DNA from: a virus
Taxonomy: Duplodnaviria > Caudoviricetes
Direction: 5' to 3' (one strand)
Length of the DNA: 25,366 nt
Virus record (IMG/VR): IMGVR_UViG_3300032073_000224
Span: 1-25,366 of that record
The position numbers and the translations under genes are program-made. The notes under the pieces were generated by a model that was not told the origin of the DNA, made no database searches, and worked only from the letters and a program-made list of their open reading frames with translations. This document shows, piece after piece, positions 2,886 to 21,724 of the stretch (its first letter is position 1; every line of letters begins with the position of its first letter).

Positions 2886-4808
2886 ATGGACGATCAAAGC
2901 AAGTCTGACAACCCGTCGCAAAGAAACCAGCAGGATTCGGACACCACGAATCCGGCAGGAGTTGGGGAGTACGAGAATGTTGCCGACTTGCCAGAAGATG
3001 ACCAAGAGTTCTTAGAAAACGAAGTTTCTGAATCTGGCGACACAGGCAATCCCGAGCTTCCGTCCTCCGATCTGATGACGGAAGAACGAAAGCAGCGGTT
3101 GTTTAAGGCTGTTGAGCATAGCTATCGCGAATTGCGTCAATTCAGGGACTTAAACAAATCGCTGATTGAGGACTACGCAGGCCCAGCCTACACAGGTGAC
3201 GACACTCAGCCAGTGAAGTACATCAACCTAATGGCTCAAGCTGTTGAGGCTTACACGATGCTGCTGGTGGGTAGTAACCCGCAAGTATGCGCGGAAACTT
3301 ACGACCCTAGCTTAAAGGGCTTTGCCAATCACTTTGTTGTCGCACTAAACAACCTGCTTGACGAAATTGAAGTGCGAGACACATTCAAGGAGTGGGTTCG
3401 TAACTCGTTCTTTGGCATGGGCGTCATAAAAATCCACATGGCAGACTCGGGCGAAGTTGTTGCAGAGGGCGACGTTCTGATGGACCCAGGTTCTCCGTTT
3501 GCTTCCGTCGTTTCCCTTGACGACTGGGTGCATGATGCCAGTGCAAGAAAGTGGACAGAGTGTACGTTCCAAGGCGATATGTACCGGATACCGTTTGATG
3601 AGCTAGACAATGGGTTCTTTAATGAAGAAGCGGTAAAAGACCTACAGCCCAGTGGAACAATTAGCGAAACCGGAGAAAGAGTGGACAATCTTTCCCGTGA
3701 AGGCAATGCTAATCAATCAGAGTTTGAGGACATGATTGACCTCATCGACATTTACATTCCTCGCGATGGACTGATCTATACGTTTGTCATAGATGATCGA
3801 CGCATCTGTTCTCTAAAAGGTGACGCGATCGCAGTGACCGAGTGGATTGGCGATGAAGTCGGCCCTTACAAAAAGCTGTGCTTGACGAGCGTTCCTGACA
3901 ACACAATGCCGATACCTCCTGCTTCAATGTGGAGTCCGTTGGACAAGCTGGCAAACAACCTCATGCGAAAGGCTGCTCGTCAGGCAAAGCGAGCAAAGCA
4001 GGTTTTGACATACACTCCGCAGGGGGCCGAGGGTGCGAGCAGGATTAAACAGGCAAGCGATGGAGCAATGGTCGAGGTACAGGACGTATCTGAAGTTCAG
4101 CCGGTGTCGCTCGGAGGTGTTGATCCCGCAGTAAATGCCTTCATGCTGCAATCAATGGAACTATTTGACAGGATGAGCGGCAATCTGTCTGCAATCCTTG
4201 GACTGGGTACGTCAGCCGAAAGCGTAGGTCAGGAAAAGCTGATTCATGGTGCAACTAGCCGAATGGAAGAATCCATGCAGGCAACTGTCATGTACGCTGC
4301 AAATCAGGTGGTGAAGGAGCTTGCTCAGTTGTTATGGGAGGATAAGTACAAGACCATCAAGGGGCAAATGTCTCTCGATGGTCATCCAAGCATGACTGCT
4401 GAATCCAACTGGACACCAGACGACCGTGAAGGCATGTTCTCTGACTACAAGATTCAGCTTGATATTTACTCAATGAGCTACCAAGGGCCAGGTGAGAGAA
4501 TGATGGTTATCAACCAACTCTTGCAGCAAATGTACGCTCCGCTTCTGCCAATACTACAGCAGCAGGGTGGAACGATCGACATGCAGGCGTTGACTGCGAA
4601 GTACGCACAGATGCTAAATCAGCCTTCACTTTCTGAGATTGTCGTTTTCAATGAGCCTGTGCAAATGCCAGAGGCAGGACCGTCGCAAGAAGGGCAAGGC
4701 AAATCACCTGTATCAAACCGGACATACACAAGACGCAATGAGTCAGTCGGTAACAACTCTGGCGTCCCAGACATCCCTATTCCTCAGCAAGCCGAGCCAA
4801 AAACATGA
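2886..4808 (+). CDS. Portal protein (P22-like size and position)
   Basis: 640 aa, between TerL and scaffold/capsid. Contains FFGMGVIKIH, V-S-x-D-D-W-V-H-D-x-x-A and GTSAESVGQE (cf. T-A-T-E motif of podoviral portals), a helical C-terminal region and an acidic, disordered N-terminal extension. Confidence 0.85.
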   Translation: MDDQSKSDNPSQRNQQDSDTTNPAGVGEYENVADLPEDDQEFLENEVSESGDTGNPELPSSDLMTEERKQRLFKAVEHSYRELRQFRDLNKSLIEDYAGPAYTGDDTQPVKYINLMAQAVEAYTMLLVGSNPQVCAETYDPSLKGFANHFVVALNNLLDEIEVRDTFKEWVRNSFFGMGVIKIHMADSGEVVAEGDVLMDPGSPFASVVSLDDWVHDASARKWTECTFQGDMYRIPFDELDNGFFNEEAVKDLQPSGTISETGERVDNLSREGNANQSEFEDMIDLIDIYIPRDGLIYTFVIDDRRICSLKGDAIAVTEWIGDEVGPYKKLCLTSVPDNTMPIPPASMWSPLDKLANNLMRKAARQAKRAKQVLTYTPQGAEGASRIKQASDGAMVEVQDVSEVQPVSLGGVDPAVNAFMLQSMELFDRMSGNLSAILGLGTSAESVGQEKLIHGATSRMEESMQATVMYAANQVVKELAQLLWEDKYKTIKGQMSLDGHPSMTAESNWTPDDREGMFSDYKIQLDIYSMSYQGPGERMMVINQLLQQMYAPLLPILQQQGGTIDMQALTAKYAQMLNQPSLSEIVVFNEPVQMPEAGPSQEGQGKSPVSNRTYTRRNESVGNNSGVPDIPIPQQAEPKT

Positions 4809-5233
4809 GCTACCCATTCATCGACGATGAAGGAAATGTCCACAACCTTGACTTTGAACAGATGATTGAAGCCAAGGACGGGTTCTACCAGCTTGACGAT
4901 GGCACTTGGCTGCGACGAGTCAGGGGCGATTCTGTTCGGGCTCCCAAAGGTATTCGCCAAAGGACGGAAATCATTTCCGACTCAATGGGGTTTATCGAGA
5001 AGCAGTTGCCTGACATGCAAAAGCATCTCAAGCAGTCAGGGGTAAGAGGCGTTGAGTTTGTAAGAGACAAGACTGAGCCTAAGTTCTTTCAAGTCAAGTG
5101 TGACTCTCCAAATGTTTTGCAGAAGTATCTCAAGTCACGCCAGATGGCAGATTACAACACAAAAAACGGATCGGGAGCAATGCTTTCAGAGCAGCAACTT
5201 GCCGACGCAAAAGAATTGGTCTTGAGAAAATAG
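4805..5233 (+). CDS. Hypothetical protein
   Basis: 142-aa ORF coupled to the portal stop by an ATGA overlap. No recognisable family. Confidence 0.7.
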   Translation: MSYPFIDDEGNVHNLDFEQMIEAKDGFYQLDDGTWLRRVRGDSVRAPKGIRQRTEIISDSMGFIEKQLPDMQKHLKQSGVRGVEFVRDKTEPKFFQVKCDSPNVLQKYLKSRQMADYNTKNGSGAMLSEQQLADAKELVLRK

Positions 5234-6245: not shown

Positions 6246-6308
6246 CCATTGATATTTGCGCTCGGGAAATGCGTGTGCTTCCGGCTTGTGTCGGGGCAGC
6301 ATGAATGG

Positions 6309-9377: not shown

Positions 9378-10046
9378 ATGTCGCTAACGGTCGATTACAA
9401 CGAAATTCAAAGGTCCGTAGCAAGACGGCTTGGCTACCCCATTGCCTCTGCAAACCGCAGCACTGACGAGCAAGACTCGATCAATGATGCGATACGGACT
9501 GGCTTGCGTTGGTTTTACTTTCCAACTGGCGAGATGACGCACGAATGGAGTTTCTTGGTGAAGCTCTATCAAGAAACTCTCGTTTCAGGCCAGAACTGGT
9601 ACTTATTGCCTGACGACTTTGAGCGAGTAGCTTCGTCAGTGGACTCGTCGTTGACCGACCATCCTTTGACTGCAACGACCGAGGACAGCATAAGGCTAAG
9701 GATCGCAGGCGAGGGATTGTCTGGTGGACCGGAGTATTGTGCGGTCAGGAACAGGCAGGTCGAGGGAGACACAAGGTATGAATTTGGCGTTTACCCTACG
9801 CCAGATTCAGCAGGCACTCTTTCGTTTTGGTACTTGTTCTCGCCAAGCATTATCTCGGAGTCAAATCCTGAGCCTTTGGGTGGTGCTGTTCACGCTGACA
9901 CGATCATGCTTGGTTGCTTGGCTGCGGCAGAAGCTCAGATGAATCCTGAGATGCTGGCAGGCGAGGGTGGCGTTCACTATCAACTGTTCAATGAAAAACT
10001 GGCTGCGGCTGTAATGTCAGATCGCATACAGCGGGGAGTGCAGTAA
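9378..10046 (+). CDS. Head-tail adaptor / tail tubular protein A-like ring protein (copy 1)
   Basis: Helical N-terminus, then H-E-W-S-F-L, Y-x-L-P-D-D-F, G-x-P-x-Y and Y-P-T-P-D motifs of T7 gp11-like / crAss ring-like adaptors. C-terminal PLGGAVHA..I..CL helices. Confidence 0.7.
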   Translation: MSLTVDYNEIQRSVARRLGYPIASANRSTDEQDSINDAIRTGLRWFYFPTGEMTHEWSFLVKLYQETLVSGQNWYLLPDDFERVASSVDSSLTDHPLTATTEDSIRLRIAGEGLSGGPEYCAVRNRQVEGDTRYEFGVYPTPDSAGTLSFWYLFSPSIISESNPEPLGGAVHADTIMLGCLAAAEAQMNPEMLAGEGGVHYQLFNEKLAAAVMSDRIQRGVQ

Positions 10047-11323
10047 TGGTTTGGCCGATTGCGGAAGCGGAATACGGAAATTACCACTGGCTTCGGAAGG
10101 AAGTGGCAGCAGCAATGCCCGACTATCCGAAGGATGCTGCTTTACTGGATCACACTCAGCGGTCGATCATTGACTCGATCATTGAAGGTGGGCTGTATCG
10201 GTTTTACTTCCCACCCCCAGGCGAATTTACGATACCCGACGCAACGGAGGCTCAAAAGGAGCGTTTGCGTCGTGCGCCGCATAGCTGGTCGTTTCTCCAA
10301 CTGTTGACTGAGATAACAACGGTTGCTACTCAATCGGAGTACGACCTTCCGACCGACTTTGGAAATTTCATTGGCGAACCAACGACTGCACGAACTGACA
10401 GCAATCGCCTCGCCATAGCTCAGGAGTCGCACCTAAGACAGCTTATTGCATCAGAAGGTCGCACTGACAATCCGCAATACGTTGCCAAGAAGATCATCAG
10501 CGGTGAAGGTACAGCAAAGAGCCGCTGCTCTCTTTTGCTTTACCCAGTACCGACGACTGCCGAGGTAATCACCCTGCAATACTCGGTAGTGCCTGCACGA
10601 CTGAGCAATGAAAGCCCTTGGCCTTTGGGCGGCATTGAACACGCACAGACGATACTTGCCTGCTGCCTTGCGGTAATGGAAGAACGCAATGGCGGCGAGG
10701 GGCAGGTCTACAAAGCAAAGATGATGGAAACCATCGCTTCGTCAGTGATGCTTGACATTGAGTCAGCATCCAGTACGACCGAGGGCATCTGGCCTGACGA
10801 CACTGATCCGTCGTTGCTTACGAGCAGGGGGCAGATACTCAAGCGAATTGGTGTCCACGTTGGGGCTGGTCCGAACAGCAAGGTTTGGACGGCATCTCAG
10901 GCTGCGAAGATCAAAGAGATTTTTAAGGAAGGGATGCGTCTCGCCTGCAATCCGCCGCCTATTCCCGACATGCGTTACCCACATCAATGGGGCTGGCTTA
11001 CGCCACTGGCATCAATCACTACGGTTGCAAATACGTCAACATACGACCTTCCCGCCGACTACGCATATATCGAGGGACCGCTGACGCTACAGCCAAGTGA
11101 TTACATGCTGTACCCGCCGATCCAGATTCAAGGCGAGTTTCAGGTGCGGAACTTGTTGCAGGAAAGTCAGGCGACAGGGCGACCGACGACAGCGGCAGTT
11201 CGCGTGAAAGCACCGCTTGATGACAACGATCCTACACGGTACGAGCTTGTAGTTTGGCCTTTGCCTGACGGTGTTTACACGCTTGATTATCGCTACCGAA
11301 TCAATCCCGATGTTCTGTCATAA
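10046..11323 (+). CDS. Tandem two-domain adaptor/ring protein (copies 2 and 3; copy 3 lacks its C-terminal helices)
   Basis: Two paralogous units: HSWSFL..YDLPTDF..YPVPT..PLGGIEHA, and from about 10811 HQWGWL..YDLPADY..WPLPD..YRINPDVLS-stop. Confidence 0.75.
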   Translation: MVWPIAEAEYGNYHWLRKEVAAAMPDYPKDAALLDHTQRSIIDSIIEGGLYRFYFPPPGEFTIPDATEAQKERLRRAPHSWSFLQLLTEITTVATQSEYDLPTDFGNFIGEPTTARTDSNRLAIAQESHLRQLIASEGRTDNPQYVAKKIISGEGTAKSRCSLLLYPVPTTAEVITLQYSVVPARLSNESPWPLGGIEHAQTILACCLAVMEERNGGEGQVYKAKMMETIASSVMLDIESASSTTEGIWPDDTDPSLLTSRGQILKRIGVHVGAGPNSKVWTASQAAKIKEIFKEGMRLACNPPPIPDMRYPHQWGWLTPLASITTVANTSTYDLPADYAYIEGPLTLQPSDYMLYPPIQIQGEFQVRNLLQESQATGRPTTAAVRVKAPLDDNDPTRYELVVWPLPDGVYTLDYRYRINPDVLS

Positions 11324-11338
11324 GCACAAGGTAGAGAA

Positions 11339-11950
11339 ATGACAATCACATACGAACGTGACGTAAAGGAATTGGCCGACCAAGGGTTGACTGACGACCA
11401 AATCGCGCAGCACTTGTCAGCAAAGACAGCAACGGCAATCCCTTGCGGTGACGCACGAACGCTTCTTTTAGAAACCCAGGCGATTGTCATTGATCCGGTC
11501 ACTGGTCAGAGGACTGGTCCGATCATCGACTATTACTTGACTCTTGACGGTGAATCAAAGCACTTGGTCGGATGGTTTATTTCGCATGTCCTTGGGAGTG
11601 GTGAGTCTGTTTCCACAGACGAATACCCTCGGTCGGTTCAATTTGACGGAGTAATCTCTTTGCTGCCTGTTGAGTTGCAGTCAGTTGGCGAAGCTCTTGT
11701 CCAACTGGGAAGCGGCAAGCCACATGCCGGAACAACGATTGACGACGTTACGCAAGCTCGCGATGTCTATGATGCAGAAGTTGCACAGCAAGAGGCAGAC
11801 GAAGCTGATGCTGCTGCAACTGTTTTGCAGCAAGTGAAGTTCAACGACAAGATCGCTCAGTTCATTGGCCCTTTGATTTCTTCAAACGACAGTGACGACA
11901 ACAACTGGATCAACGCAATTCAGAACATTGCTACTACATGGAGTGAGTGA
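11339..11950 (+). CDS. Hypothetical acidic helical protein (possible fibre assembly/adapter factor)
   Basis: 203-aa ORF whose stop overlaps the start of the LamG fibre gene. Function is a positional guess. Confidence 0.6.
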   Translation: MTITYERDVKELADQGLTDDQIAQHLSAKTATAIPCGDARTLLLETQAIVIDPVTGQRTGPIIDYYLTLDGESKHLVGWFISHVLGSGESVSTDEYPRSVQFDGVISLLPVELQSVGEALVQLGSGKPHAGTTIDDVTQARDVYDAEVAQQEADEADAAATVLQQVKFNDKIAQFIGPLISSNDSDDNNWINAIQNIATTWSE

Positions 11951-14900
11951 TGCCGCTCGGTGTAAATTTTCGGCTGACTACTGGATACGCCACTGATCCA
12001 GTAGGTTTTGTTGTGCAGACGGACAATGCACTGTACTCTCCGTCGCGTGGGTACGGGTACATAGTCAACGCTGGTGTAGGCACTGCAAACAGGAGCAATA
12101 CCGTACCCGACCAGCTTCGCGGGGTTCAAACCGTTTCGTCGCATGGATCGTCGTTTCGGATGGATTTGCCCAATGGTGCAGGAAAATACAGAGTAAAGGC
12201 AGCGTTCAGCGATACAACTTACGGGCAGGTGCTTGGTTGGCGGTTTTTTGACGGTGACAGTGGTGTTGAAATAGCTGCTGCGAAAAATGGTGGTACAAGC
12301 ACTTCGTATTACCAAACCATTCTTGGAAACTCACCTGCCCATTCTGACTTTGATGCAACCAAAGAAGATTACATTGAGCATGAGTTTGTCTCAGATCACA
12401 TATTAGTGTTCAGAGACACATATATGCAGAGCGGCAACTCCATGATTAGCTCTCTTTGGGTTGAGCCTGTAACTGCCGGTCTTGGGGATGAGAAGTTGTG
12501 GTTATGTCCTAGTATCAACGACAGTGCCAATGACATCAGCGGTAATGAGAACCACGGAACCTACAACGGTGGCATGGGAACTGTCACCTCTGACGGCAAA
12601 CTTGCTTATGACTTTGATGGGACTGACGACTTTATTGACTGTGGCTCATCAACCGGCATAGGCCAATCCAGCACGTTCTCCGTGTCGGCTTGGTTCAGTG
12701 CTGACGCATTTTCGTCCAGTGCTGGTCTTGTCACGGCATACGGAAACGTATCTCCCTACAGCAACCAAAGGGGTTGGATGATACGGATGCCGTCAAGTCC
12801 GACCTTCTTAACCAATGCAGCAAAGAGCAGTTCTAGTTTTAATAGCACGATCACATCGTCGCAGTCGCTCTCCACTAACACATGGCATCACATCGTCGCG
12901 ACATACGATGTATCGACAGGCGCGATGGAGATGTTCATCGACGGCGTGTCTGTGGCTACTGGCTCATCTGCGGGAACCATCTCGTCACCCACTGTTCCTT
13001 TCCGCATCGGAAAGTACGACAGCAACGAGTTCAATGGCAAGGCAGATGACGTTAGAGCATACAACCGTGTCCTAACCCAAGAAGAAATAACCCACTTGGC
13101 AAGCAGTCGAGGGATTCAAGGTTCACCATTTGGAAAAGGTCTTGGCGGCGAAAGCCTTTGGATTTGCCCAACGATCACAAATACAAAAGAGGATATATCT
13201 GGTCACAACATAACAGCCACGCTGAATGGAGGAATGTCGATAGTCAGCGACACCAACAACGGTGGGTCTAAATGCTTTGAATTTGACGGGTCCAATGACT
13301 ATATCAGCACCGACATGCAAGGCGAAGCATCGTTTTTCTCCAAGACGGGCAAATGGTCAGTTGCGGCATGGGTCAAGTTTGATGACGGTTCCAGCACCGC
13401 ATCTCATGGGATTATAGGTACGAGCGTTGGGAGCAGCGGGTACGGATTTAACTTGTGGATGAGCAGTCTAGCAGAGGGTTTGCGTGGCGATGTAGCTGAC
13501 GGATCGTACCTGTGCTACCCGAGCGAAGGATCGGCTTGGCCCGACTCTGGCTGGCATCACGTTGCGTTCGTGTCCGATGGAACGACAGCTACTCTATATC
13601 GCGATGGTGCGTCAGTGGCTACACAGGCTCTTGCATCTCTTAACACCGCGTGGGTCCAGCCAGTGTCGTATCCAGTTCTGTTTGGTGCTTACACCAGTGG
13701 TGGAAGTCTTGCAGGAGTAATGGATGGACGTATGGATGATATTCGCATCTTCCGTCGCCCGTTGTCACAGGCTGAACTTACCAAACTGGCATCGCAGAGG
13801 GGGGTGTTAGGAAAGGCGAATCCAGATGGTCTTGGAGACGAGGCGTTTTGGTGTTCACCGACTCACACTGGTACAGTCGCAGACATTTCAAACAACGGTC
13901 AAGCGTATCTTGGAGGAAAACAACAGGCAAAGTTTTTAGGCAATGCAGAAATAGTTTCTAGCACTGGCTCTGGCGGCACAGACGCATTTGAATTTGGCGG
14001 CGGCTCGGAGCGAGTGAGGCTTGACCAAAAGATTGGATTTCGGAAAGACAAAAACTACTCTTTGTCTTTTTGGGCAAAGCCAAGTGCGGTATCTGCGCTT
14101 CGCATTTTTGTGGCAAAGATGGAAACGAGCGGGCAGTACACAGGATGGAACATACAGCACAGCTCGGGTGGTAGTGTCGTTTTTGAAGCGTTGCGTAATG
14201 GTACAACTAGCGCAAGAGTTAGAGCCGAGACGCCTAGTGGTGTCGTTTCTAATAACACATGGGCGCACATTGCAGTTACATGGGACGGGTATGACTCGAC
14301 GACTTTCCAGATATTCGTTGACGGTGTGAAGCAGACGCTCACGCATACCTACAATAACTGGGGTACAAACCAAAATATGTACACCCACGAAGAATTTGTC
14401 ATCGGTGGTCGTGGCGGTCACTCGGCGTATGCGTATCTTGGGCAGGTTGATGATATTCGTGGCTACGCAAGGGTTTTAGACGAAGCAGAAATCGCACATC
14501 TCTCTACCTCGCGATCCGTTACCGGCAAACCTCCGAAGCAAACGCAAGTTATTAACGAAGCTGTCGCCTACGTTCCAATGCAGGAGCAAGGAACGACGTT
14601 TTACTGCCAAAAGACAAACATTGCAGGAACGCTGTCAGACACAAATTCCACGGGCAGGCACGTTGCTGGTCCGACCGAATTTTTGAGCAATGCGGTCAAG
14701 TTTGACGCAAGCAGACAGCGAAGGATTGCTTTTGCCAGCGTACCCTCCGGTCTTGCCGGAATGACTAAGTACACGGTGTCGGCTTGGGTAAAGGCTCAGA
14801 TTTCTTCCACGACAAACCGATGTGTTGTTTCCTTTGAAGGAACTGCGTCCTCTCGTAGTTACCGCTTAGACACTCATGTATCTGCAAGCACCCTAAAAGG

Positions 14901-17586
14901 ACCGTCGTTTTTCCATGCGAACAGTCAAATCCTAAACCGAAACAAACTTGACAACACAAATCAGTGGACGCACGTTACTGTCACGGTTGATACTACTACA
15001 GGAACACGCCAGTCATACATAGACGGGCAGCTTGACGTTGAGTCAGCAGGGTCGCCATACGCTGCTGTTCACGCGACGTTGAACTACTTTGCGATTGGTG
15101 CGACGACCCACGGAGGGGTAGGAAACTACCACGACGCTGCAATAGCTGGCGTCGGAATCTGGGACAAGATTCTGTCACCCACGGAAATTAACTCACTGTA
15201 CTCCGGCTACGGTCGCAAGCTGAAAGGCTTGCGTGATGAGAAGTTGTGGATCGTTCCAAGCAGGACCGGCGACCGATCCAATGTCATGTACCCTGCTCAT
15301 GCTGACACTGAACTGAACGGATCGCTTTCAATCATCGACGACGTTGACGAAGGCGGCACAAAAGCGATTCAGTTCAACGACCAATCCAGCACCAGCAATT
15401 ACCTTGAGTGGGACGACAATACCGACTCTGATCCAGTGACAGTTGCGTTCTGGGTCAAAGCTCCTGCCTATAGCACATACGACATGACGGCGTTAATCGG
15501 AAAGTCTGGTAGCGGCAGCTTGCGTGCGTTGCTTGACACAAGTGGTTATGGAATGGGAGGTACGCTGAGTTTCTCTGGTGACTCTAATCCATACGCAGGA
15601 ACGGCGTGGTTCAACACTAATTTTGGAAGTGCAACGTGGCATCACGTTGCTATGGTTCGTGATTACCAAAGCAGCACAAAGTTCTATGTGGACGGAACGC
15701 TGGTTCACACCGGAAGCGCAGACGACACTACTGCTGGCGACTGGGATGCAGCAGAGTATTTCATTGGGATTGATAAGTCCACGAACTATTCAGACAACAA
15801 CCTTTACGCAGACATTGATGATCTTCGTGTAATTGACGGTGCTGCAACTTCCGATGAGATAGCTCACATTGCTCAGTTTCGCGGCATACTTGGTGGTCCG
15901 TACATCGAGTGCGATGCTGGTGAGTTTAATGTCACGGGAAACAATGTAAATCTTCGTATTCCGGTCAGAATGTCTGCTAGTGCAGCTACGTTCACGCTGA
16001 CTGGTCAAGTCGCACACGGGAACTGGATTCCAGCGGGTCTTGGGACTGAATTGATGTGGGTTTGCCCGACCTACACAGGCGACCGAAGCAACCTTGCACC
16101 AAGTCAAAATGCGACGAGTAATGGCGGAACGCTGTCAGTAATCAACGACACCACTAACCAAGGATTGCGAGCGTTTGATTGCACTGTTACCAATAATGCG
16201 AACAACTATTGGAGGTTTAACTACGGTTCCAGCAGGCCAGGTACGCTCACCTTTTGGATGAAAAAATCCAGCACCGGAAACTGGTGGCAAACGATGGCAA
16301 GGCGAGTCACCAGCGGAAATGCGGTACAAATACAGGTTCGTTCATCGACAAATTCAAACACAAACTTTGATTATTTCTACTATTGGAACGACAATCAAGG
16401 TTCTAACCAGACTACGACATTGAATGGCACATGGCATCATGTCGTCATGGAGCGGGACAGGGGAGGGCTAAATCGCTTTTTTGTTGACGGTGTAGCGTAT
16501 GGCAGTTACACAGGTGGAGCAGGTAGTGCGTCAGATGAGTTTGCTGGGACTATGCAGTTCATTGCGTCGTCCTCAAGCAGTCATACCTCCGGTGCTTACA
16601 ACTTCACGGGCTTGATCGACGACATTCGCCTGTTTGATACTCAGCTAACCAGTGCTGAGATTGCCCACCTTGCATCGCGTCGTGGCGTTCAGGGTCCAGC
16701 AAGTACCTCAGCGTCAATGTCAGCAGACGTTGTGACGTTTACCCTTGCGGGTCAGGCAGTGGCTTTCCGCCAAGGAATAAAACTATCGGCTGGTATCAGT
16801 GCGTTCTCTTTGTCTGTCGCAAGCGCAGACCTAGACATTGAGCTTAACGGATCGGCTCAGTCTTACTTGCTTTCGTCGCAAGGCACTGATCTTGACATTG
16901 AGCTTAATACGACAGCAGGCAGCTTCACGCTAACGGCAGCGACCCAAGTTCTTGACGTTGAATTAAACACGGCAGTCGGGGCGTTTTCTCTTTCAGGAAC
17001 CGCAGCAGAGCTTTCCGTTGCTCAATCAATTCCTGCATCTGCTGGCTCTTTCGTTTTAACAGGAGTGCCAACGGACGATCTTGCGATTGAGCTAAACACA
17101 AGTGTCGGGACATTTGCGGCTACAGGGACCGCAGCAGAGCTTTCTGTCTCTAAGGCAATGCCTGCATCTGCTGGCTCTTTCGCTCTGACTGGAACCGAGA
17201 CAGACGATCTGGCGATTGAGCTAAACGCAGATGTTGAGTCATTTGCGCTTACAGGGGTTTCTGCAAACTTGCAGACCAGCAACGCCAAGCAACTTGGTGC
17301 TGATGCAGCGGCGTTTGCTGTTACTCCACAGAATACAACAAGATTCTTGGTTGAGTTTAACCAAACAGTAGGGTCGTTGGCAGTTTCGGGCGTGAACGCC
17401 CCGCTTGATATAGCAACAGTCGCGTCTGCCGTCAGTTTTTCCGTCGCAAGCCAGTCAGCATTTCTTGGGCTGACTTTTCAACTTACGGTTGGTACTTTTC
17501 AGGTTACAGGAACCTCGCTGCCGCCCATCCCAGGCACTCAGCGACCAAACCCATACTACTACCGTTTCTTGATGCAGGACGAATAA
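11947..17586 (+). CDS. Giant multi-LamG (ConA-like) tail fibre / adhesin
   Basis: N-terminal galactose-binding-like sandwich (YSPSRGYGY...FRMDLPNG.GKYRV); six LamG-like domains with FDG, S.SAW.K, W.H.., .F.DG and DD.R.. motifs; C-terminal ~20-aa beta-repeat stalk. Confidence 0.85.
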   Translation: MMPLGVNFRLTTGYATDPVGFVVQTDNALYSPSRGYGYIVNAGVGTANRSNTVPDQLRGVQTVSSHGSSFRMDLPNGAGKYRVKAAFSDTTYGQVLGWRFFDGDSGVEIAAAKNGGTSTSYYQTILGNSPAHSDFDATKEDYIEHEFVSDHILVFRDTYMQSGNSMISSLWVEPVTAGLGDEKLWLCPSINDSANDISGNENHGTYNGGMGTVTSDGKLAYDFDGTDDFIDCGSSTGIGQSSTFSVSAWFSADAFSSSAGLVTAYGNVSPYSNQRGWMIRMPSSPTFLTNAAKSSSSFNSTITSSQSLSTNTWHHIVATYDVSTGAMEMFIDGVSVATGSSAGTISSPTVPFRIGKYDSNEFNGKADDVRAYNRVLTQEEITHLASSRGIQGSPFGKGLGGESLWICPTITNTKEDISGHNITATLNGGMSIVSDTNNGGSKCFEFDGSNDYISTDMQGEASFFSKTGKWSVAAWVKFDDGSSTASHGIIGTSVGSSGYGFNLWMSSLAEGLRGDVADGSYLCYPSEGSAWPDSGWHHVAFVSDGTTATLYRDGASVATQALASLNTAWVQPVSYPVLFGAYTSGGSLAGVMDGRMDDIRIFRRPLSQAELTKLASQRGVLGKANPDGLGDEAFWCSPTHTGTVADISNNGQAYLGGKQQAKFLGNAEIVSSTGSGGTDAFEFGGGSERVRLDQKIGFRKDKNYSLSFWAKPSAVSALRIFVAKMETSGQYTGWNIQHSSGGSVVFEALRNGTTSARVRAETPSGVVSNNTWAHIAVTWDGYDSTTFQIFVDGVKQTLTHTYNNWGTNQNMYTHEEFVIGGRGGHSAYAYLGQVDDIRGYARVLDEAEIAHLSTSRSVTGKPPKQTQVINEAVAYVPMQEQGTTFYCQKTNIAGTLSDTNSTGRHVAGPTEFLSNAVKFDASRQRRIAFASVPSGLAGMTKYTVSAWVKAQISSTTNRCVVSFEGTASSRSYRLDTHVSASTLKGPSFFHANSQILNRNKLDNTNQWTHVTVTVDTTTGTRQSYIDGQLDVESAGSPYAAVHATLNYFAIGATTHGGVGNYHDAAIAGVGIWDKILSPTEINSLYSGYGRKLKGLRDEKLWIVPSRTGDRSNVMYPAHADTELNGSLSIIDDVDEGGTKAIQFNDQSSTSNYLEWDDNTDSDPVTVAFWVKAPAYSTYDMTALIGKSGSGSLRALLDTSGYGMGGTLSFSGDSNPYAGTAWFNTNFGSATWHHVAMVRDYQSSTKFYVDGTLVHTGSADDTTAGDWDAAEYFIGIDKSTNYSDNNLYADIDDLRVIDGAATSDEIAHIAQFRGILGGPYIECDAGEFNVTGNNVNLRIPVRMSASAATFTLTGQVAHGNWIPAGLGTELMWVCPTYTGDRSNLAPSQNATSNGGTLSVINDTTNQGLRAFDCTVTNNANNYWRFNYGSSRPGTLTFWMKKSSTGNWWQTMARRVTSGNAVQIQVRSSTNSNTNFDYFYYWNDNQGSNQTTTLNGTWHHVVMERDRGGLNRFFVDGVAYGSYTGGAGSASDEFAGTMQFIASSSSSHTSGAYNFTGLIDDIRLFDTQLTSAEIAHLASRRGVQGPASTSASMSADVVTFTLAGQAVAFRQGIKLSAGISAFSLSVASADLDIELNGSAQSYLLSSQGTDLDIELNTTAGSFTLTAATQVLDVELNTAVGAFSLSGTAAELSVAQSIPASAGSFVLTGVPTDDLAIELNTSVGTFAATGTAAELSVSKAMPASAGSFALTGTETDDLAIELNADVESFALTGVSANLQTSNAKQLGADAAAFAVTPQNTTRFLVEFNQTVGSLAVSGVNAPLDIATVASAVSFSVASQSAFLGLTFQLTVGTFQVTGTSLPPIPGTQRPNPYYYRFLMQDE
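16996..17226 (+). repeat. 129-nt-period (43-aa) intragenic tandem duplication in the fibre stalk
   Basis: accgcagcagagctttc, cctgcatctgctggctctttcg (17032/17161) and gcgattgagctaaac (17083/17212) each recur exactly 129 nt apart. Confidence 0.9.
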
Positions 17587-18042
17587 ATGGCTGCTTTTAA
17601 CAAGTTTAATTGCTTCGTCGAGGACTTGACGAAAGGCAAGCACACGCTGGACACCACTGCGAGCGGCAATGGCGACACATTAAAAGTCGCGCTGGTTGCC
17701 ACTGCCCCAGTCGCAACAAACACCGTCTACAGTAATTTGGCGGGGGAACTTGGTGCTGCAAACGGCTACTCGGCGGGCGGCGCAACCTGCACAGTAAGTG
17801 CTTCATCGCAGACAAGCGGGACTTACAAGCTGGTCATTGACGGCGACCCTGTTTTTACCGCAAGCGGCGGCGACCTTGGAGGGACCGGCGATGCCTTTCG
17901 GTATGTCGTTCTTTACAACAACACCGACTCAACAAAGCCGCTCATTGGGTACTACGACTACGGCAGCAATGTGACCATTTCTGACGGCAACACGTTTACA
18001 GTGGACTTTGACGCTTCCGCTGGCGTGTTCACTATCGCTTGA
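17587..18042 (+). CDS. Small fibre-associated virion protein
   Basis: DTLKVAL...NGYSAGG...F.ASGG...Y.VLYN.T...LIGY.DYG...G.TFTV.F pattern, which I recognise as a widespread small phage structural protein found next to fibre genes. Confidence 0.65.
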   Translation: MAAFNKFNCFVEDLTKGKHTLDTTASGNGDTLKVALVATAPVATNTVYSNLAGELGAANGYSAGGATCTVSASSQTSGTYKLVIDGDPVFTASGGDLGGTGDAFRYVVLYNNTDSTKPLIGYYDYGSNVTISDGNTFTVDFDASAGVFTIA

Positions 18043-18070
18043 TCCAGATAATCGCCAAATCGTCGAGTAA

Positions 18071-18619
18071 ATGTTCAAGAATACCGCAGGCCAGTCGTAT
18101 CGCGTATTTGCCTTCAACCGGACCACAAGTGAGCCGGTGACTGGCATCGCCGCTACGATTACGGCAAAGCTGTCCAAGGACTACGGAAGTCTTGCTGCCT
18201 CGTCGGACGTAAATCCAACCGAGACAGAGGATGGCTACTACCTGTTTGCGTTAAGCCAATCGGAAACCAACTGCGACGACTTGGCTATCTATCCTGAAAG
18301 CGCAAACAACGGCGTTTCCGTTATTGGTTGTCCAGCGAATCTTCACCCAAGAGTGGACAATGATCGCGGATTCTTAGTGAACCTGACTATCAAACTAGCA
18401 AATAATGCCATCGTGCCTTATTGCGAAGTGATTGTCACGACAAGCAACACCAATGACACTACTGACGTTTTCAGAAAAGCTAATTGCGACGAGTTGGCGA
18501 AGGTAGATATTCACCTCCCAGCGGGTACTTATTACCTCTGGCGTCGTAAGGCGAATGTTACTTTCAGCGATCCAAAAACGCTTACCGTCTCTGCGACGGG
18601 CGCAACAACCATCTCATAG
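18071..18619 (+). CDS. Two-domain Ig/prealbumin-like virion protein (possible fibre docking)
   Basis: N-terminal P.TG....A..SKD.G.....E...GYY.F.L...ET sandwich and C-terminal L.AGTYYLWR carboxypeptidase-regulatory-like strand pattern. Confidence 0.55.
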   Translation: MFKNTAGQSYRVFAFNRTTSEPVTGIAATITAKLSKDYGSLAASSDVNPTETEDGYYLFALSQSETNCDDLAIYPESANNGVSVIGCPANLHPRVDNDRGFLVNLTIKLANNAIVPYCEVIVTTSNTNDTTDVFRKANCDELAKVDIHLPAGTYYLWRRKANVTFSDPKTLTVSATGATTIS

Positions 18620-18628
18620 GAGACTGCC

Positions 18629-18928
18629 GTGACAGACGTAATCGGTGGAGTCAAGGAAGTTGTTACGCTCGACAAAGTAATGCGAGGAACAGCGGTACAC
18701 GCAAGGATGATCTTGGAATCATGTCTAGTCACTGCGGATCGCATGGCAGGCGTAGAAGGAATCCATGAGCGTTTGTTTATGGAATCGCTGATCGCTTCTG
18801 TTCGGCATGACCAGATGCAGGAATCACCAAGTTCGCTTGGGTACAACTACGACAAATCGGATCGTATGGATCGTGGTTACGACCACCACGACTGGCAGAA
18901 CACAGGCGTCACCTACAACGGATCATAG
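18629..18928 (+). CDS. Detached C-terminal part of adaptor/ring domain 3
   Basis: GTG start with AGGAG (18618-18622). GTAVHARMILESCLVTADRMAGVEGIHERLFMESLIASVRHD aligns by eye with GGAVHADTIMLGCLAAAE...GEGGVHYQLFNEKLAAAVMSD (9378 gene) and GGIEHAQTILACCLAVMEE..GGEGQVYKAKMMETIASSVMLD (10046 gene). Confidence 0.75.
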   Translation: MTDVIGGVKEVVTLDKVMRGTAVHARMILESCLVTADRMAGVEGIHERLFMESLIASVRHDQMQESPSSLGYNYDKSDRMDRGYDHHDWQNTGVTYNGS

Positions 18929-18930
18929 TC

Positions 18931-19293
18931 ATGGCAAACGAAGCAACCGCAACCGTATCGCTGTCTTACAAAAAAGGCGGACGCGAAGAAGAAATGCACA
19001 GCGTCTCTGTTCCGTCTGACGTTGCTGGCGAGCAATACGCCAAGACTACGATGCTTGTTGGGACAGCAGGCACTTCTCTCAAGCTCGGCGGCGTGGCGGC
19101 ACTTGGCGGTCTTATCTCAGGTCGCGTGTTAAGCACGACTGGGACAGTCACGTTCTATATCAACACCGAGACAGATTTCCTGACGTTGAACGCTGGCGAT
19201 CCGTTCCTTTTTCGGCTGGTGTCTGGTGCGGCTGTATTAGTGAAGGGCAGTTCTGCCGACAGGGAAATTGAATATCTGCTATTGGAGGCGTAA
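18931..19293 (+). CDS. Hypothetical beta-rich virion protein
   Basis: 120-aa ORF coupled (TAATG) to the next gene. Confidence 0.65.
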   Translation: MANEATATVSLSYKKGGREEEMHSVSVPSDVAGEQYAKTTMLVGTAGTSLKLGGVAALGGLISGRVLSTTGTVTFYINTETDFLTLNAGDPFLFRLVSGAAVLVKGSSADREIEYLLLEA

Positions 19294-21146
19294 TGCCACA
19301 GCAAGACGTTCCCCTGCCGTTCCCGCTGCGAGGCGTTGACAAATCGCTGTCTCATTTGGCTGGCGATCCTGAAACCACTGTGTATGCTCGCAATGTCTTT
19401 CCTAAAGACGTTACTGAGTCTCGTATTCGTGGTGGATCACGGAAAGGTTTGGCAAAGCGTTTCCCTGACTTGCTTCGCGGCACACCGCAGTTCTTGCTTG
19501 AAGTATCAAAGATCACTTCCAGTTTTGACGAGCCATATCAATTTTTGTTGATTGGAACCACTGCGTCTATTTACATATCGAGCGCGACTCGCTCAACGGT
19601 AAATGGAAACATCCAGTACAGCGAAGTCCTGAATGAAATAAACGGTGCGATTACAGATCAGAGCGGGGCAACGATAACTGACCACAATAGCGAACTGATC
19701 GAGACGACTTCGTTTGTGCTGACAGGCGAGGGAAACGCATACGCTGGAAACGTCACAGTGCATCAAGGTGCAGTTATATTTTCCCAGCCTTCCGAGACTG
19801 TGTTTAGCGGGACTGGAACACTGACGAACGGAACACTTACCAGTAGCGGAGTGGCGGACTTTACGTTAATTGGTGCAGACAAGTCTCAGCATGTAGTGAA
19901 CATCACGGTAGGGCAGACGGGGACACTGCTTGGCAGTTACAAGATGTCGTCGATCACCTCTGGGTCAATCGTCTTTGCAACAAGCTCGACTGGGACAAAT
20001 GGTGCAGTCAGTTTTTCAGTTGTAAACGCCCCAAAAACGGTTGACGTTGAAAACCGAACAGTTGACGTTGTTACCCCCACAGCAGGTACGTTTCCCAGCG
20101 GATCGACTTCTATCATCACTACCTATCGGGACCGATTAGTTTGGGCAGTGGACCGTGTGTGGTACATGAGCCGAGTCGGTGACGCTGGTGATTACAATTA
20201 CTCTGCTGATGTAGCTGACAATGGCAGGCCGGTTGCGGGAACAAACAGTGACGCTGGACTCCCAGGTGATCCAATCACTGCAATGGCAGCGGTGGGATAT
20301 GACTTCTTGCTTATGTTCTCCGAGCAATCAACGTGGGTGCTGCGAGGCGATCCTGCCTTTGGTGGTCAGCTATTTAACCTCAGTAGAAAGGTGGGTTGCG
20401 TTTCGCCTGACGCTTGGTGCTACGGTCCAGACGGAGAGATTTACTTTCTTTCAAAGGACGGGCTTTACGTCGTGTCGCCTGAAATGTCGTCGCCTCCGGT
20501 TTCGTTAAGTGATGGCAGGATGCCTGCTGAATTAAAGCAGCGAGACTCGGAGAACTACGACACTGCTCTGGCTTACGACATGACGGAGAACGCGGTGGTC
20601 ATCTTCGTTACGCCACGGGACGGGGTGACTGCTGGTTCTCACTGGTGGTTTGACACTACAACAGCTTCCTTCTGGGAGTTTCAATTTGCAGACGCTCAGA
20701 AACAGCCAGTTGCAGCTTTGTCCTATTCAGGCGCACCAACTCGTCAGCGTGGAACAACGGTCCTGTGTCCAGATGGCTATGTCAGAGAACTGGCTGGAAC
20801 AACTGACGATGGCGATGCTATATCGTCCCGCATCCTGATCGGGCCTTTGCTTATGTCGCAAACAATGGGAAGCGAAGGACTGCTTACTCAGTTGCACACG
20901 GAGCTAGGCAAAGGAAGCGGATCGGTGACGGTTGAGGTTTATGCAGGCGACAATGCCGAGGAATTGCTGGATGAAGCTGTACTGGGAAACTCACCTGGCT
21001 TTACCCGCAGCATCTCAGAAGGCAGAAGCAAGACAATCAGGCCGAGGCTTCGCGGGGCTTACGCTGTCCTTGTCATGCACAGCAATGAGTCGTGGTCGTC
21101 TGAATCGCTTTTGGCAACCGTAGCACAAGTAGGGAGGACAAGATAA
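19293..21146 (+). CDS. Tail nozzle / tail tubular protein B-like (P22 gp10-like stabilisation) protein
   Basis: 617 aa; N-terminal P.P.RGVD; beta-propeller-like blades (YRDRL...W.S..GD...Y, GD.ITAM, VGCVS, IYFLSKDGLY); C-terminal R.RG.Y. Lies after the adaptors. Confidence 0.75.
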   Translation: MPQQDVPLPFPLRGVDKSLSHLAGDPETTVYARNVFPKDVTESRIRGGSRKGLAKRFPDLLRGTPQFLLEVSKITSSFDEPYQFLLIGTTASIYISSATRSTVNGNIQYSEVLNEINGAITDQSGATITDHNSELIETTSFVLTGEGNAYAGNVTVHQGAVIFSQPSETVFSGTGTLTNGTLTSSGVADFTLIGADKSQHVVNITVGQTGTLLGSYKMSSITSGSIVFATSSTGTNGAVSFSVVNAPKTVDVENRTVDVVTPTAGTFPSGSTSIITTYRDRLVWAVDRVWYMSRVGDAGDYNYSADVADNGRPVAGTNSDAGLPGDPITAMAAVGYDFLLMFSEQSTWVLRGDPAFGGQLFNLSRKVGCVSPDAWCYGPDGEIYFLSKDGLYVVSPEMSSPPVSLSDGRMPAELKQRDSENYDTALAYDMTENAVVIFVTPRDGVTAGSHWWFDTTTASFWEFQFADAQKQPVAALSYSGAPTRQRGTTVLCPDGYVRELAGTTDDGDAISSRILIGPLLMSQTMGSEGLLTQLHTELGKGSGSVTVEVYAGDNAEELLDEAVLGNSPGFTRSISEGRSKTIRPRLRGAYAVLVMHSNESWSSESLLATVAQVGRTR

Positions 21147-21724
21147 TGCCTGCTGATCCAAGCATTGTAGTTTCCGGTCATGTGTCCGACCTTCCGTTTC
21201 ATCCTCCTGCAACGGATGACAAGCGAGACGCAGAGCTTGCATTTGATCGTCTCGACAAAAAGATTGCTGGCAGCGTAACTCGCGTCACAACACTTGAAAC
21301 AGGTCTGACGACAGCAAACGCAAGCATTGCAACAAACGCAACAAACATTGCAACAAACGCAACAGATGTTGCGACCAATGCAGCGAACATTGCGACGAAC
21401 GTATCAAACATTGCAACCAATGTTACTAATATCGCAACTAACGCTTCAGACCTTACCTCTGCTGTTAGCACAATAAACACTGCTCTAGCTGCCAAGGTAG
21501 ACGAAACCACGATAGCAGCGGCAAGCGTTCCAAATTCCGCATCGACAGGCGTGGTCAACACTGGGTGGGGGATTACATACCAAAACTCATCATACAACCT
21601 TGACGTTGTTGACTGGAACAACAGTCAAATGGATGCTTTTTTTGACAGTCAATTTTTCTTCATCCATGAAAATATCCTGCACTTGCAGACGAAGATAAAC
21701 CAAATTATTACAGCGATAGGATAG
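21146..21724 (+). CDS. Trimeric coiled-coil tail needle/fibre (P22 gp26-like position)
   Basis: Six consecutive (I/V)ATNxxx heptads; follows the nozzle gene as gp26 follows gp10 in P22. Confidence 0.6.
   Translation: MPADPSIVVSGHVSDLPFHPPATDDKRDAELAFDRLDKKIAGSVTRVTTLETGLTTANASIATNATNIATNATDVATNAANIATNVSNIATNVTNIATNASDLTSAVSTINTALAAKVDETTIAAASVPNSASTGVVNTGWGITYQNSSYNLDVVDWNNSQMDAFFDSQFFFIHENILHLQTKINQIITAIG
21326..21451 (+). repeat. Six 21-nt heptad-coding repeats
   Basis: IATNATN IATNATD VATNAAN IATNVSN IATNVTN IATNASD; the first two units are nearly identical in DNA (attgcaacaaacgcaaca). Confidence 0.9.

What the first reader, a model, noticed from the sequence alone, without database searches (positions are those of the whole stretch)
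10811..18928. Split tail-adaptor gene: a 7.3-kb fibre cassette sits inside adaptor domain 3, and the severed C-terminus survives as its own gene
Seen in sequence: adaptor copies 1 and 2 run ...Y-x-x-x-P-x-x-(I/L)-S, then 7 residues, then GG-x-x-HA-x-x-I-x-x-C-L and two helices. Copy 3 stops exactly at YRINPDVLS-TAA (11323). The missing part (TLDKVMR-GT-AVHARMILESCL...GIH..LFMESLIASV..D) is encoded at 18665-18928, in the same reading-frame register, behind its own AGGAG RBS and GTG start, with essentially no residues lost and no stops or frameshifts. Four intact genes, including the 1879-aa LamG fibre, lie between the halves. Inference: this is a natural gene fission in a core virion ring protein in which both halves are retained and presumably re-associate during assembly, so the break point acts as a landing site for receptor-binding cassettes. 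A less likely alternative is that the halves are rejoined by DNA excision or RNA processing, giving fibre-plus and fibre-minus virions. I see no recombinase, intron, intein or convincing flanking repeat (only TCATA at both gene ends).
Basis: partly seen in the sequence, partly recalled or inferred. Interest (0 to 1): 0.9.

Follow-up and report, generated by a model that had tools for sequence, protein, structure and literature searches.

The report
Phage tail adaptor split by fibres
In this uncultured marine phage and its relatives, the gene for a ring protein of the head-tail joint is cut in two by a block of likely fibre genes; both pieces are kept by selection and are predicted to clip back together as proteins, so an essential virion gene can likely host swappable host-recognition genes inside it.

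Summary
The split is real, old and conserved. The 425-aa protein at 10046 is a two-unit podophage adaptor whose second unit stops after its beta domain. The 99-aa ORF at 18629 is the missing end: a profile of 57 intact relatives finds it at E 2.5e-28. Six intact loci lack the cassette. Six distinct split loci, down to 53% identity, keep both halves around 3.1-7.6 kb of fibre genes. The small piece is under strong purifying selection (dN/dS 0.011), and a co-fold places it on the orphan helices (0.69 against 0.02 for the best control; possibly from likeness to intact adaptors).

Corrections: the shared reading frame is chance; no junction repeat is conserved; the piece has 12 extra leader residues; relatives look like variants of one old cassette, not repeated landings.

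New: the piece carries a tail found only on terminal units, likely the portal-gripping arm, which would make it essential.

Best reading: gene fission with the two proteins re-associating. Closest published case: the split nozzle of phage A1002. A new variant of a known kind.

The parts
9378..10046 (+). Adaptor A: one complete ring unit without the terminal tail
   Evidence: Pfam PF24175 SU10_adaptor E 5.9e-16; ends right after its last helix in 8 of 8 loci printed
10046..10810 (+). Adaptor B, first unit (complete) and linker
   Evidence: PF24175, 2 stretches, E 1.4e-16 for the protein; alignment with relatives
10811..11323 (+). Adaptor B, last unit, N part: two helices plus beta (fibre-dock-type) domain, then stop
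   Evidence: 11 aligned relatives stop within about 3-7 residues of the same strand; 9 continue in frame into the C piece sequence
11339..11950 (+). Cassette gene 1 (203 aa, no family); optional
   Evidence: Found in the window, L002, L003, L013, L029; not in L004, L012, L014, L039
11947..17586 (+). Cassette gene 2: 1879-aa protein with six LamG stretches and a C-terminal run of short beta repeats (likely the rope of a chain-like fibre); variable head, conserved end
   Evidence: PF13385 E 4.4e-115, 6 stretches; 9 of 13 repeat-motif hits lie in the last 380 aa; relatives of 1930, 1502, 589 and 791 aa end alike
17587..18042 (+). Cassette gene 3 (151 aa): small beta protein, a lead to GP4 gp80-like fibre subunits; constant
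   Evidence: phrog_644 E 5.3e-18; Atlas nearest named cluster PF23140 Gp80, score 0.87, family on 23% of members; VIA-align Z 5.6, rmsd 3.7, 116 aligned to 8jou_a, rank 5, model pLDDT 60; Foldseek not significant
18071..18619 (+). Cassette gene 4 (182 aa): predicted beta-rich protein, possible fibre anchor; constant
   Evidence: Present in all six split loci at 53-97% identity; dN/dS 0.07-0.10; Atlas neighbours are viral, some with CarboxypepD_reg
18618..18622 (+). AGGAG ribosome-binding site overlapping the stop of 18071
   Evidence: Sequence; purine-rich sites also before the piece in L029, L003, L004, L012
18629..18928 (+). C piece (99 aa): conserved leader, the last two helices of the bundle, and the SLGYNxD...TYNG tail
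   Evidence: dN/dS 0.011; co-fold; tail on 82 of 104 terminal and 0 of 162 inner units
18931..21146 (+). Right flank: 120-aa gene and 617-aa likely nozzle gene; these follow the intact adaptor directly in empty-site relatives
   Evidence: L017-L020: intact adaptor followed directly by the 18931-like gene, nozzle-like gene downstream; L015, L016: intact adaptor then nozzle-like. The nozzle label is inferred from position and size; no family hit

Best explanation
The gene for a two-unit head-tail adaptor is cut between the beta domain and the last two helices of its terminal unit by a block of four genes, likely a fibre module, and the two products likely re-associate as proteins to rebuild the helix bundle. 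Shown: the cut, intact empty-site relatives, conservation of both halves, variable cargo. Inferred: the fibre module entered a loop that was already lengthened in this lineage; the upstream part gained a stop and the downstream part its own start and ribosome-binding site; both are made from the same late operon. The 99-aa piece would lay its two helices on the orphan helices at about residues 258-307 of the 425-aa protein, and its tail would grip the portal as the C-terminal embracing arm does in T7 and SU10. That would make the piece essential and hold the cassette in place. Later recombination likely exchanged the variable left part of the cassette between conserved flanks.
For: Intact relatives: 9 of 28 homologues carry the piece in frame; 6 intact loci run straight on to the downstream genes, and none holds a 17587- or 18071-like gene in the DNA fetched. 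Split relatives with both halves seen: the window, L029, L003, L004 group, L012 group, L039. Selection on the piece: 12 synonymous and 0 non-synonymous changes against L029; 46 and 4 against L003, dN/dS 0.011, against 0.044 for the N part. Fold: the model of intact L017 (pLDDT 82.5) puts the break in a lower-confidence linker, residues 431-451, between the last strand and two helices, and matches adaptors of VP1, A4, Pa223, GP4, crAss001 and SU10 (E 4e-6 to 2e-4). Co-fold: score 0.69, best of 3 controls 0.02; the mark was reached by 116 of 157 solved complexes and 2 of 215 mismatched pairs; runs agree in at least 66% of contacts, partner pLDDT at least 58; the interface is helices 258-307 on piece residues 21-40 and 50-65. 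The pass may come from likeness to intact adaptors. Tail on 82 of 104 terminal units and 0 of 162 inner units; adaptor A lacks it; the C-terminal arm binds the portal in T7 and SU10 (PMC6702177 passages; PMC9509320 section 10). Linker of 11 residues in 34 of 50 measurable intact proteins, 16-44 in the 13 nearest, 23 summed here.
Against: No expression, proteomic or structural data exist for this phage. The portal-arm role is by analogy; the tail is low-confidence in the monomer model. The history is not clean: P0016 keeps the start of the C helices in frame, then loses the frame, yet sits inside the clade of shortened proteins, and three intact tails nest with two stand-alone pieces (96/93), so there may be several breaks or re-fusions; the AU test does not reject one clade (p 0.16). 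A split relative encodes a tyrosine recombinase elsewhere.
Confidence: 0.76

Rival explanations
1. The piece has changed job: it is kept as a small portal- or tail-binding protein, but does not complete the bundle of the cut unit, which folds or stacks without it or borrows helices from a neighbour.
For: Some N parts continue into unrelated domains at the break (P0013, Ig-like by eye; P0021, resembling 9024 by eye), so the N part tolerates other ends. The piece has a conserved leader absent from most intact proteins.
Against: The helix residues of the piece are kept as in intact proteins. The co-fold puts it on the orphan helices. P0013 and the stand-alone piece P0174 share a longest-contig length of 71058, which suggests that even fused N parts keep a separate piece.
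Confidence: 0.12
2. The halves are rejoined before translation, by site-specific DNA excision or RNA splicing, giving a full-length adaptor and fibre-minus particles.
For: The window's gap is in frame, and TCATA lies at both ends. A tyrosine recombinase is present in 1 of 4 split records searched, about 37 kb away.
Against: The frame is not conserved (0, 0, 2, 1, 1). No in-frame junction repeat of 5 bases or more is shared beyond the window and L029, and junction codons vary synonymously. A crossover at TCATA would still read TCA-TAG, a stop (sequence). No Rfam intron or ribozyme: 1 weak unrelated hit. No long flanking repeat among those listed. No joint skipping the cassette in contigs of 8 of 8 runs laid, though contigs drop rare variants. 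The recombinase also occurs in the intact record G406; no resolvase in 0 of 5 records. The piece has its own start and ribosome-binding site in the five loci examined.
Confidence: 0.05
3. Stop-codon readthrough fuses the 182-aa cassette gene to the piece, so that the fibre anchor is grafted covalently into the adaptor ring.
For: In the window, L029, L003 and L004, 18071 ends 9 bases before the piece, in frame; the stop is TAG in all four. Fusion of fibre parts to a split half occurs in A1002 gp39 (PMC13730344 section 9).
Against: In L012 the two genes overlap out of frame, and in L039 likewise (that locus is frameshifted). The 9-base gap is what a ribosome-binding site overlapping a stop gives. 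6 of 21 window genes end in TAG, so TAG is a normal stop.
Confidence: 0.04
4. Misassembly, or a decaying remnant of a dead duplicate.
For: L039 carries many frameshifts across the module, so at least one copy is error-rich or decaying.
Against: The same layout occurs in separate contigs down to 53% identity. Contigs of run X7, not flagged as a source, bridge both junctions (10743-11463 and 17720-20386); one contig of X1 spans everything, but X1 may be the source. dN/dS 0.011.
Confidence: 0.01

Closest known systems
Split nozzle of Pseudomonas podophage A1002: gp39 nozzle-rope and gp42 nozzle-base, with fibre dimers gp40 and gp41 (PMC13730344; sections 9, 11, 12 and passages read)
   Same: One ancestral tail protein is made as two polypeptides that complement each other. 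A rope with GP4 gp80-like fibre dimers is tied to the split. By gene numbering the fibre genes lie between the halves (my inference).
   Different: There the nozzle is split and the rope is fused to one half. Here the adaptor is split between its beta domain and last helices, neither half is fused to cargo in this genome, and the cassette varies from 3.1 to 7.6 kb across a clade.
T7 gp11 / SU10 gp11 adaptor family (Pfam PF24175) and phicrAss001 ring proteins R1-R5 (PMC6702177, PMC10172136 passages; PMC9509320 section 10 and passages)
   Same: Helix bundle from N- and C-terminal helices, central beta dock domain, C-terminal arm; several paralogous rings as in crAss001.
   Different: In the passages read, each ring protein is one single-unit chain. 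Here units are fused in tandem (1-7 per chain in the wider family) and the terminal unit is in two genes.
nrdA split by the mobE endonuclease into NrdA-a and NrdA-b (PMC3045599, abstract read; the phage name Aeh1 is recalled)
   Same: An essential gene cut by an insertion; both pieces made; function restored by protein assembly with no splicing; new terminal tails matter.
   Different: An enzyme cut by a selfish endonuclease, not a virion ring cut by fibre genes; no nuclease gene is evident in this insert.
Chain-like fibres of GP4 (gp80 dimers on a separately encoded rope; PDB 8JOU) and VP1, as described in PMC13730344
   Same: A small beta protein of about 140-150 aa next to a long protein with short beta repeats.
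   Different: The match of 17587 to gp80 is only a lead (Z 5.6, low-confidence model); the long protein here also bears LamG heads.

Membership tests
T7/SU10-type podophage adaptor (PF24175) | Sequence match above the Pfam cut-off | tested here: met
   9378: 59.9 bits; 10046: 62 bits; cut-off 27
T7/SU10-type podophage adaptor (PF24175) | Helix bundle plus beta dock fold | tested here: met
   Model of intact relative L017 matches 8zkk, 9k09, 9nwi, 8jov, 7qoj, 7z47 at E under 2e-4
T7/SU10-type podophage adaptor (PF24175) | Encoded in a portal-capsid-nozzle module | tested here: met
   Terminase, SU10_portal just under cut-off (29.6 against 30), major head protein; nozzle inferred only
T7/SU10-type podophage adaptor (PF24175) | C-terminal arm that binds the portal; dodecameric ring | not tested
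   Only the distribution of the tail was tested; no portal co-fold was run
Split proteins reassembled in trans (A1002 nozzle, NrdA-a/b) | Two open, separately started genes that together cover the intact homologue | tested here: met
Split proteins reassembled in trans (A1002 nozzle, NrdA-a/b) | Both pieces under purifying selection | tested here: met
   dN/dS 0.044 and 0.011 against L003
Split proteins reassembled in trans (A1002 nozzle, NrdA-a/b) | Physical complex of the two products | tested here: inconclusive
   Predicted only: 0.69 against 0.02, possibly from likeness to intact adaptors
Excision element interrupting a gene (site-specific recombination) | Conserved in-frame direct repeats at the ends and a linked recombinase | tested here: not met
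   No shared repeat, frame not kept; no recombinase family among the 24 window proteins scanned
Self-splicing intron or split intein | Group I or II intron RNA structure, or intein domains at the new termini | tested here: not met
   No relevant Rfam hit up to E 1; no intein family in Pfam; the overhangs are only 4 and 19 residues
GP4-type chain-like fibre | gp80 fold in the small subunit; rope protein | tested here: inconclusive
   Atlas 0.87; VIA Z 5.6, rank 5; no significant Foldseek, PDB-sequence or Pfam hit

The most novel reading that the evidence does not exclude
The loop between the beta dock and the last helices of the portal-binding adaptor is a reusable and reversible graft point. 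Fibre modules enter it, the severed portal-gripping end becomes a free 99-aa clip with its own conserved leader, cargo can fuse to the N part, and the gene can re-fuse when the cassette is lost. The new free ends would themselves dock the inserted fibre, so fission of ring proteins would be a general route by which tailed phages wire new fibres into the virion.
Probability: 0.3. Interest if true: 0.8.

Novelty: new variant of a known kind. Interest (0 to 1): 0.6.

Why it matters
It shows that a core virion ring gene can be cut inside a folded domain and stay under strong selection across a clade spanning about 50% protein divergence. It names a natural split point in the T7/SU10-type adaptor fold and separates the likely portal-gripping arm into its own small protein, which makes the role of that arm and the order of tail assembly directly testable. 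It also warns annotators: a 99-aa 'hypothetical' gene after a fibre block can be the end of an essential gene several kilobases upstream. With the A1002 nozzle, it suggests that fission around fibre genes recurs in podophage tails.

Tried and rejected
Rejoining signals: repeats (only the 20 largest direct families and 25 longest inverted pairs were shown), Rfam, promoter and terminator scan (5 and 9 sites, below the shuffle means of 8.7 and 12.3) and joints in 8 runs gave nothing at the junctions. The one RNA run (X24) held 9 short contigs and says nothing on expression. Search for forms of 962-2745 aa with alignment A1: none among 7999 candidates; this is weak, since the profile search did find such long tandem proteins. 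No locus was found for P0013, P0012 or P0174 in viral contigs, so the context of the fused and deeper-branching forms is unseen. No match in 50,697 GenBank phage records or in PDB sequences with A1, A7 or A8. L012's first cargo gene begins MTDVV like the piece; this is not seen in the other first cargo genes printed, so I treat it as unexplained or chance. The Pfam hit Toxin_R_bind_N on 11947 overlaps the LamG match and reflects the shared fold; there is no sign of a toxin. dS is saturated against L004 and L012, so those ratios were not used. 12 of 18 short proteins were set aside by eye as contig-edge fragments of intact genes. 13 of 63 linkers could not be measured by the pattern. Paper searches for a split adaptor found only A1002 and the nrdA case; the library lacks most subscription papers, and no supplements were read.
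Full report
Setting. The window is a one-strand structural operon of a podovirus-like phage: terminase at 494 and major head protein at 6305, an SU10-type portal at 2886 just under the Pfam cut-off, and two PF24175 adaptors at 9378 and 10046. The 8 runs that hold half or more of the stretch are all marine metagenomes. A split relative lies at the end of a 484-kb contig of a Pirellulaceae MAG (L039), and 2 of 401 genomes of that family, this one included, hold a homologue. A planctomycete host is therefore a lead, not a result.

Observation. The ORFs, the stop at 11323, the AGGAG and GTG at 18618-18631 and the four intervening genes are as described. The 99-aa ORF matches the helical ends of both paralogous units (E 5e-9 and 7e-6). 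A profile made only from 57 intact relatives ranks it first among 508 six-frame segments (E 2.5e-28). Two details fail. The in-frame register is not conserved (gap modulo 3: 0, 0, 2, 1, 1). And the piece has 12 more residues than the canonical linker needs.

Relatives. Of 28 homologues of the 425-aa protein, 13 are 420-428 aa (11 aligned, all ending at the same strand; 2 classed by length only), 9 are intact, 2 continue into unrelated domains, 1 keeps the start of the C helices and then loses the frame, and 3 are fragments. Six intact loci (L015-L020) run from the full adaptor straight to the 18931-like or nozzle-like gene. Six distinct loci show both halves around a cassette: the window (7305 bases), L029 (7584), L003 (6179), the L004 group (3148), the L012 group (3400, N part 53% identical) and L039 (about 6.7 kb, frameshifted). 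Three more (L002, L013, L014) show the short N part and the start of cargo. All six end the insert with 17587- and 18071-like genes, which were found in no intact locus fetched (flanks up to 10 kb). The fibre varies from 589 to 1930 aa but ends alike in five. So the cargo looks like one old module with an exchangeable left part.

Selection. By my own Nei-Gojobori script, the piece shows 12 synonymous and 0 non-synonymous changes against L029, and 46 and 4 against L003 (dN/dS 0.011; N part 0.044; nozzle-like gene 0.037). More distant pairs are saturated. It is not decaying.

Structure. An AlphaFold2 model of intact L017 (36 sequences, pLDDT 82.5) shows for the last unit two helices, a beta domain, a lower-confidence linker at 431-451, two helices and a disordered tail. 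The break maps to the linker. Foldseek gives 11 matches at E under 0.001, all portal-tail or virion chains of VP1, A4, Pa223, GP4, crAss001 and SU10. The co-fold of residues 252-425 with the piece scored 0.69 against 0.02 for the best of 3 controls. The mark was reached by 116 of 157 solved complexes and 2 of 215 mismatched pairs; the runs agree in at least 66% of contacts; partner pLDDT is at least 58. The contacts join helices 258-307 to piece residues 21-40 and 50-65. Halves of a split gene tend to pass by likeness, so this shows compatibility, not binding.

What the piece carries. A profile search found 1491 proteins, of which the best 150 were listed. They include chains of 1 to 7 tandem units. 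In 105 multi-unit proteins the tail after the last helix is reached by 82 of 104 terminal matches and 0 of 162 inner ones. Adaptor A lacks it in 8 of 8 loci printed. In T7 a C-terminal embracing helix surrounds the portal stem (PMC6702177, passages); in SU10 a C-terminal embracing loop wedges between portal clips (PMC9509320, section 10). I infer that the piece is this phage's only portal-gripping arm, which would explain its conservation. The other units would stack as further rings, as in crAss001 (PMC10172136, passages). Neither inference was tested directly.

History. The linker is 11 residues in 34 of 50 measurable intact proteins and 16-44 in the 13 nearest, so the loop likely lengthened before or with the break. 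In the N-part tree (34 rows) the 20 non-intact rows form one clade (97/96), but it includes P0016, which looks intact up to a frameshift. Six stand-alone pieces came from the 50% library; five start M(T/S)(D/N)(V/L)(I/L/V)G. In the piece tree, three intact tails nest with two stand-alone pieces (96/93), and the AU test does not reject one clade (p 0.16, 83 columns). One break with re-fusions, or several breaks in one loop, both remain open. P0018/P0159 (2249 bases) and P0013/P0174 (71058) share longest-contig lengths, which hints at a split with at most about 0.7 kb between halves and at an N part fused to cargo with a separate piece; those contigs could not be fetched.

Rejoining. No conserved in-frame junction repeat, no intron family, no joint in contigs of 8 runs. 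A crossover at TCATA would leave a stop. A tyrosine recombinase exists in 2 of 5 records, one split and one intact, so excision is not excluded by lack of an enzyme, but nothing points to it.

Cargo. 11947 has six LamG stretches and a repeat-rich end. 17587 has weak links to the GP4 gp80 fibre subunit (not significant). In GP4 such dimers are joined by a separate rope protein (PMC13730344, section 11). A chain-like fibre is therefore my reading, at lead level.

Novelty. Five paper searches found no split adaptor, but they did find the principle: the A1002 nozzle is rebuilt from two proteins, and a fragmented nrdA assembles without splicing (abstract). Earlier notes of this scan describe adaptor and crAss ring genes split by fibre genes; these are unchecked AI notes and not support, but they lower the rarity. 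Verdict: real, a new variant of a known kind; re-association 0.76; interest 0.6.

Noticed in passing
P0034, P0035, P0043, P0048, P0063, P0099: The family includes polyproteins of five to seven tandem adaptor units (up to 1683 aa), which would build a multi-ring tail barrel from one chain.
   Followed up: partly
P0013 and P0021: N parts that run in frame, at the same break, into other domains: Ig-like in P0013 and 9024-like in P0021, both judged by eye.
   Followed up: partly
window 18071-18928; L029, L003, L004: 18071 and the C piece are in frame, separated by TAG plus 9 bases, in four close loci but not in L012 or L039.
   Followed up: partly
L012:2289-2300: The first cargo gene begins MTDVV, with 11 bases matching the start of the window's C piece.
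   Followed up: partly
window 12476-13101 and 16800-17250: Population variation inside the fibre gene: divergent LamG alleles and contigs that skip 60- and 129-base repeats, so rope length may vary.
   Followed up: no
L016:74-2620, L017:585-1679, L043 (reverse strand 3607-4878): Adaptor A or single adaptors with long N-terminal additions (848, 364, 423 aa); several family members also have inserts inside the beta domain.
   Followed up: no
L039 / G001:C5: The prophage-like module in the Pirellulaceae MAG is full of frameshifts (sequencing error or decay) and has a different, multi-gene cargo.
   Followed up: partly
window 21146-21724: Gene with coiled-coil repeats and a weak tail needle hit (phrog_1219, E 0.002).
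   Followed up: no
L019:11497-12225: The 18931-like gene is duplicated in tandem after the intact adaptor.
   Followed up: no
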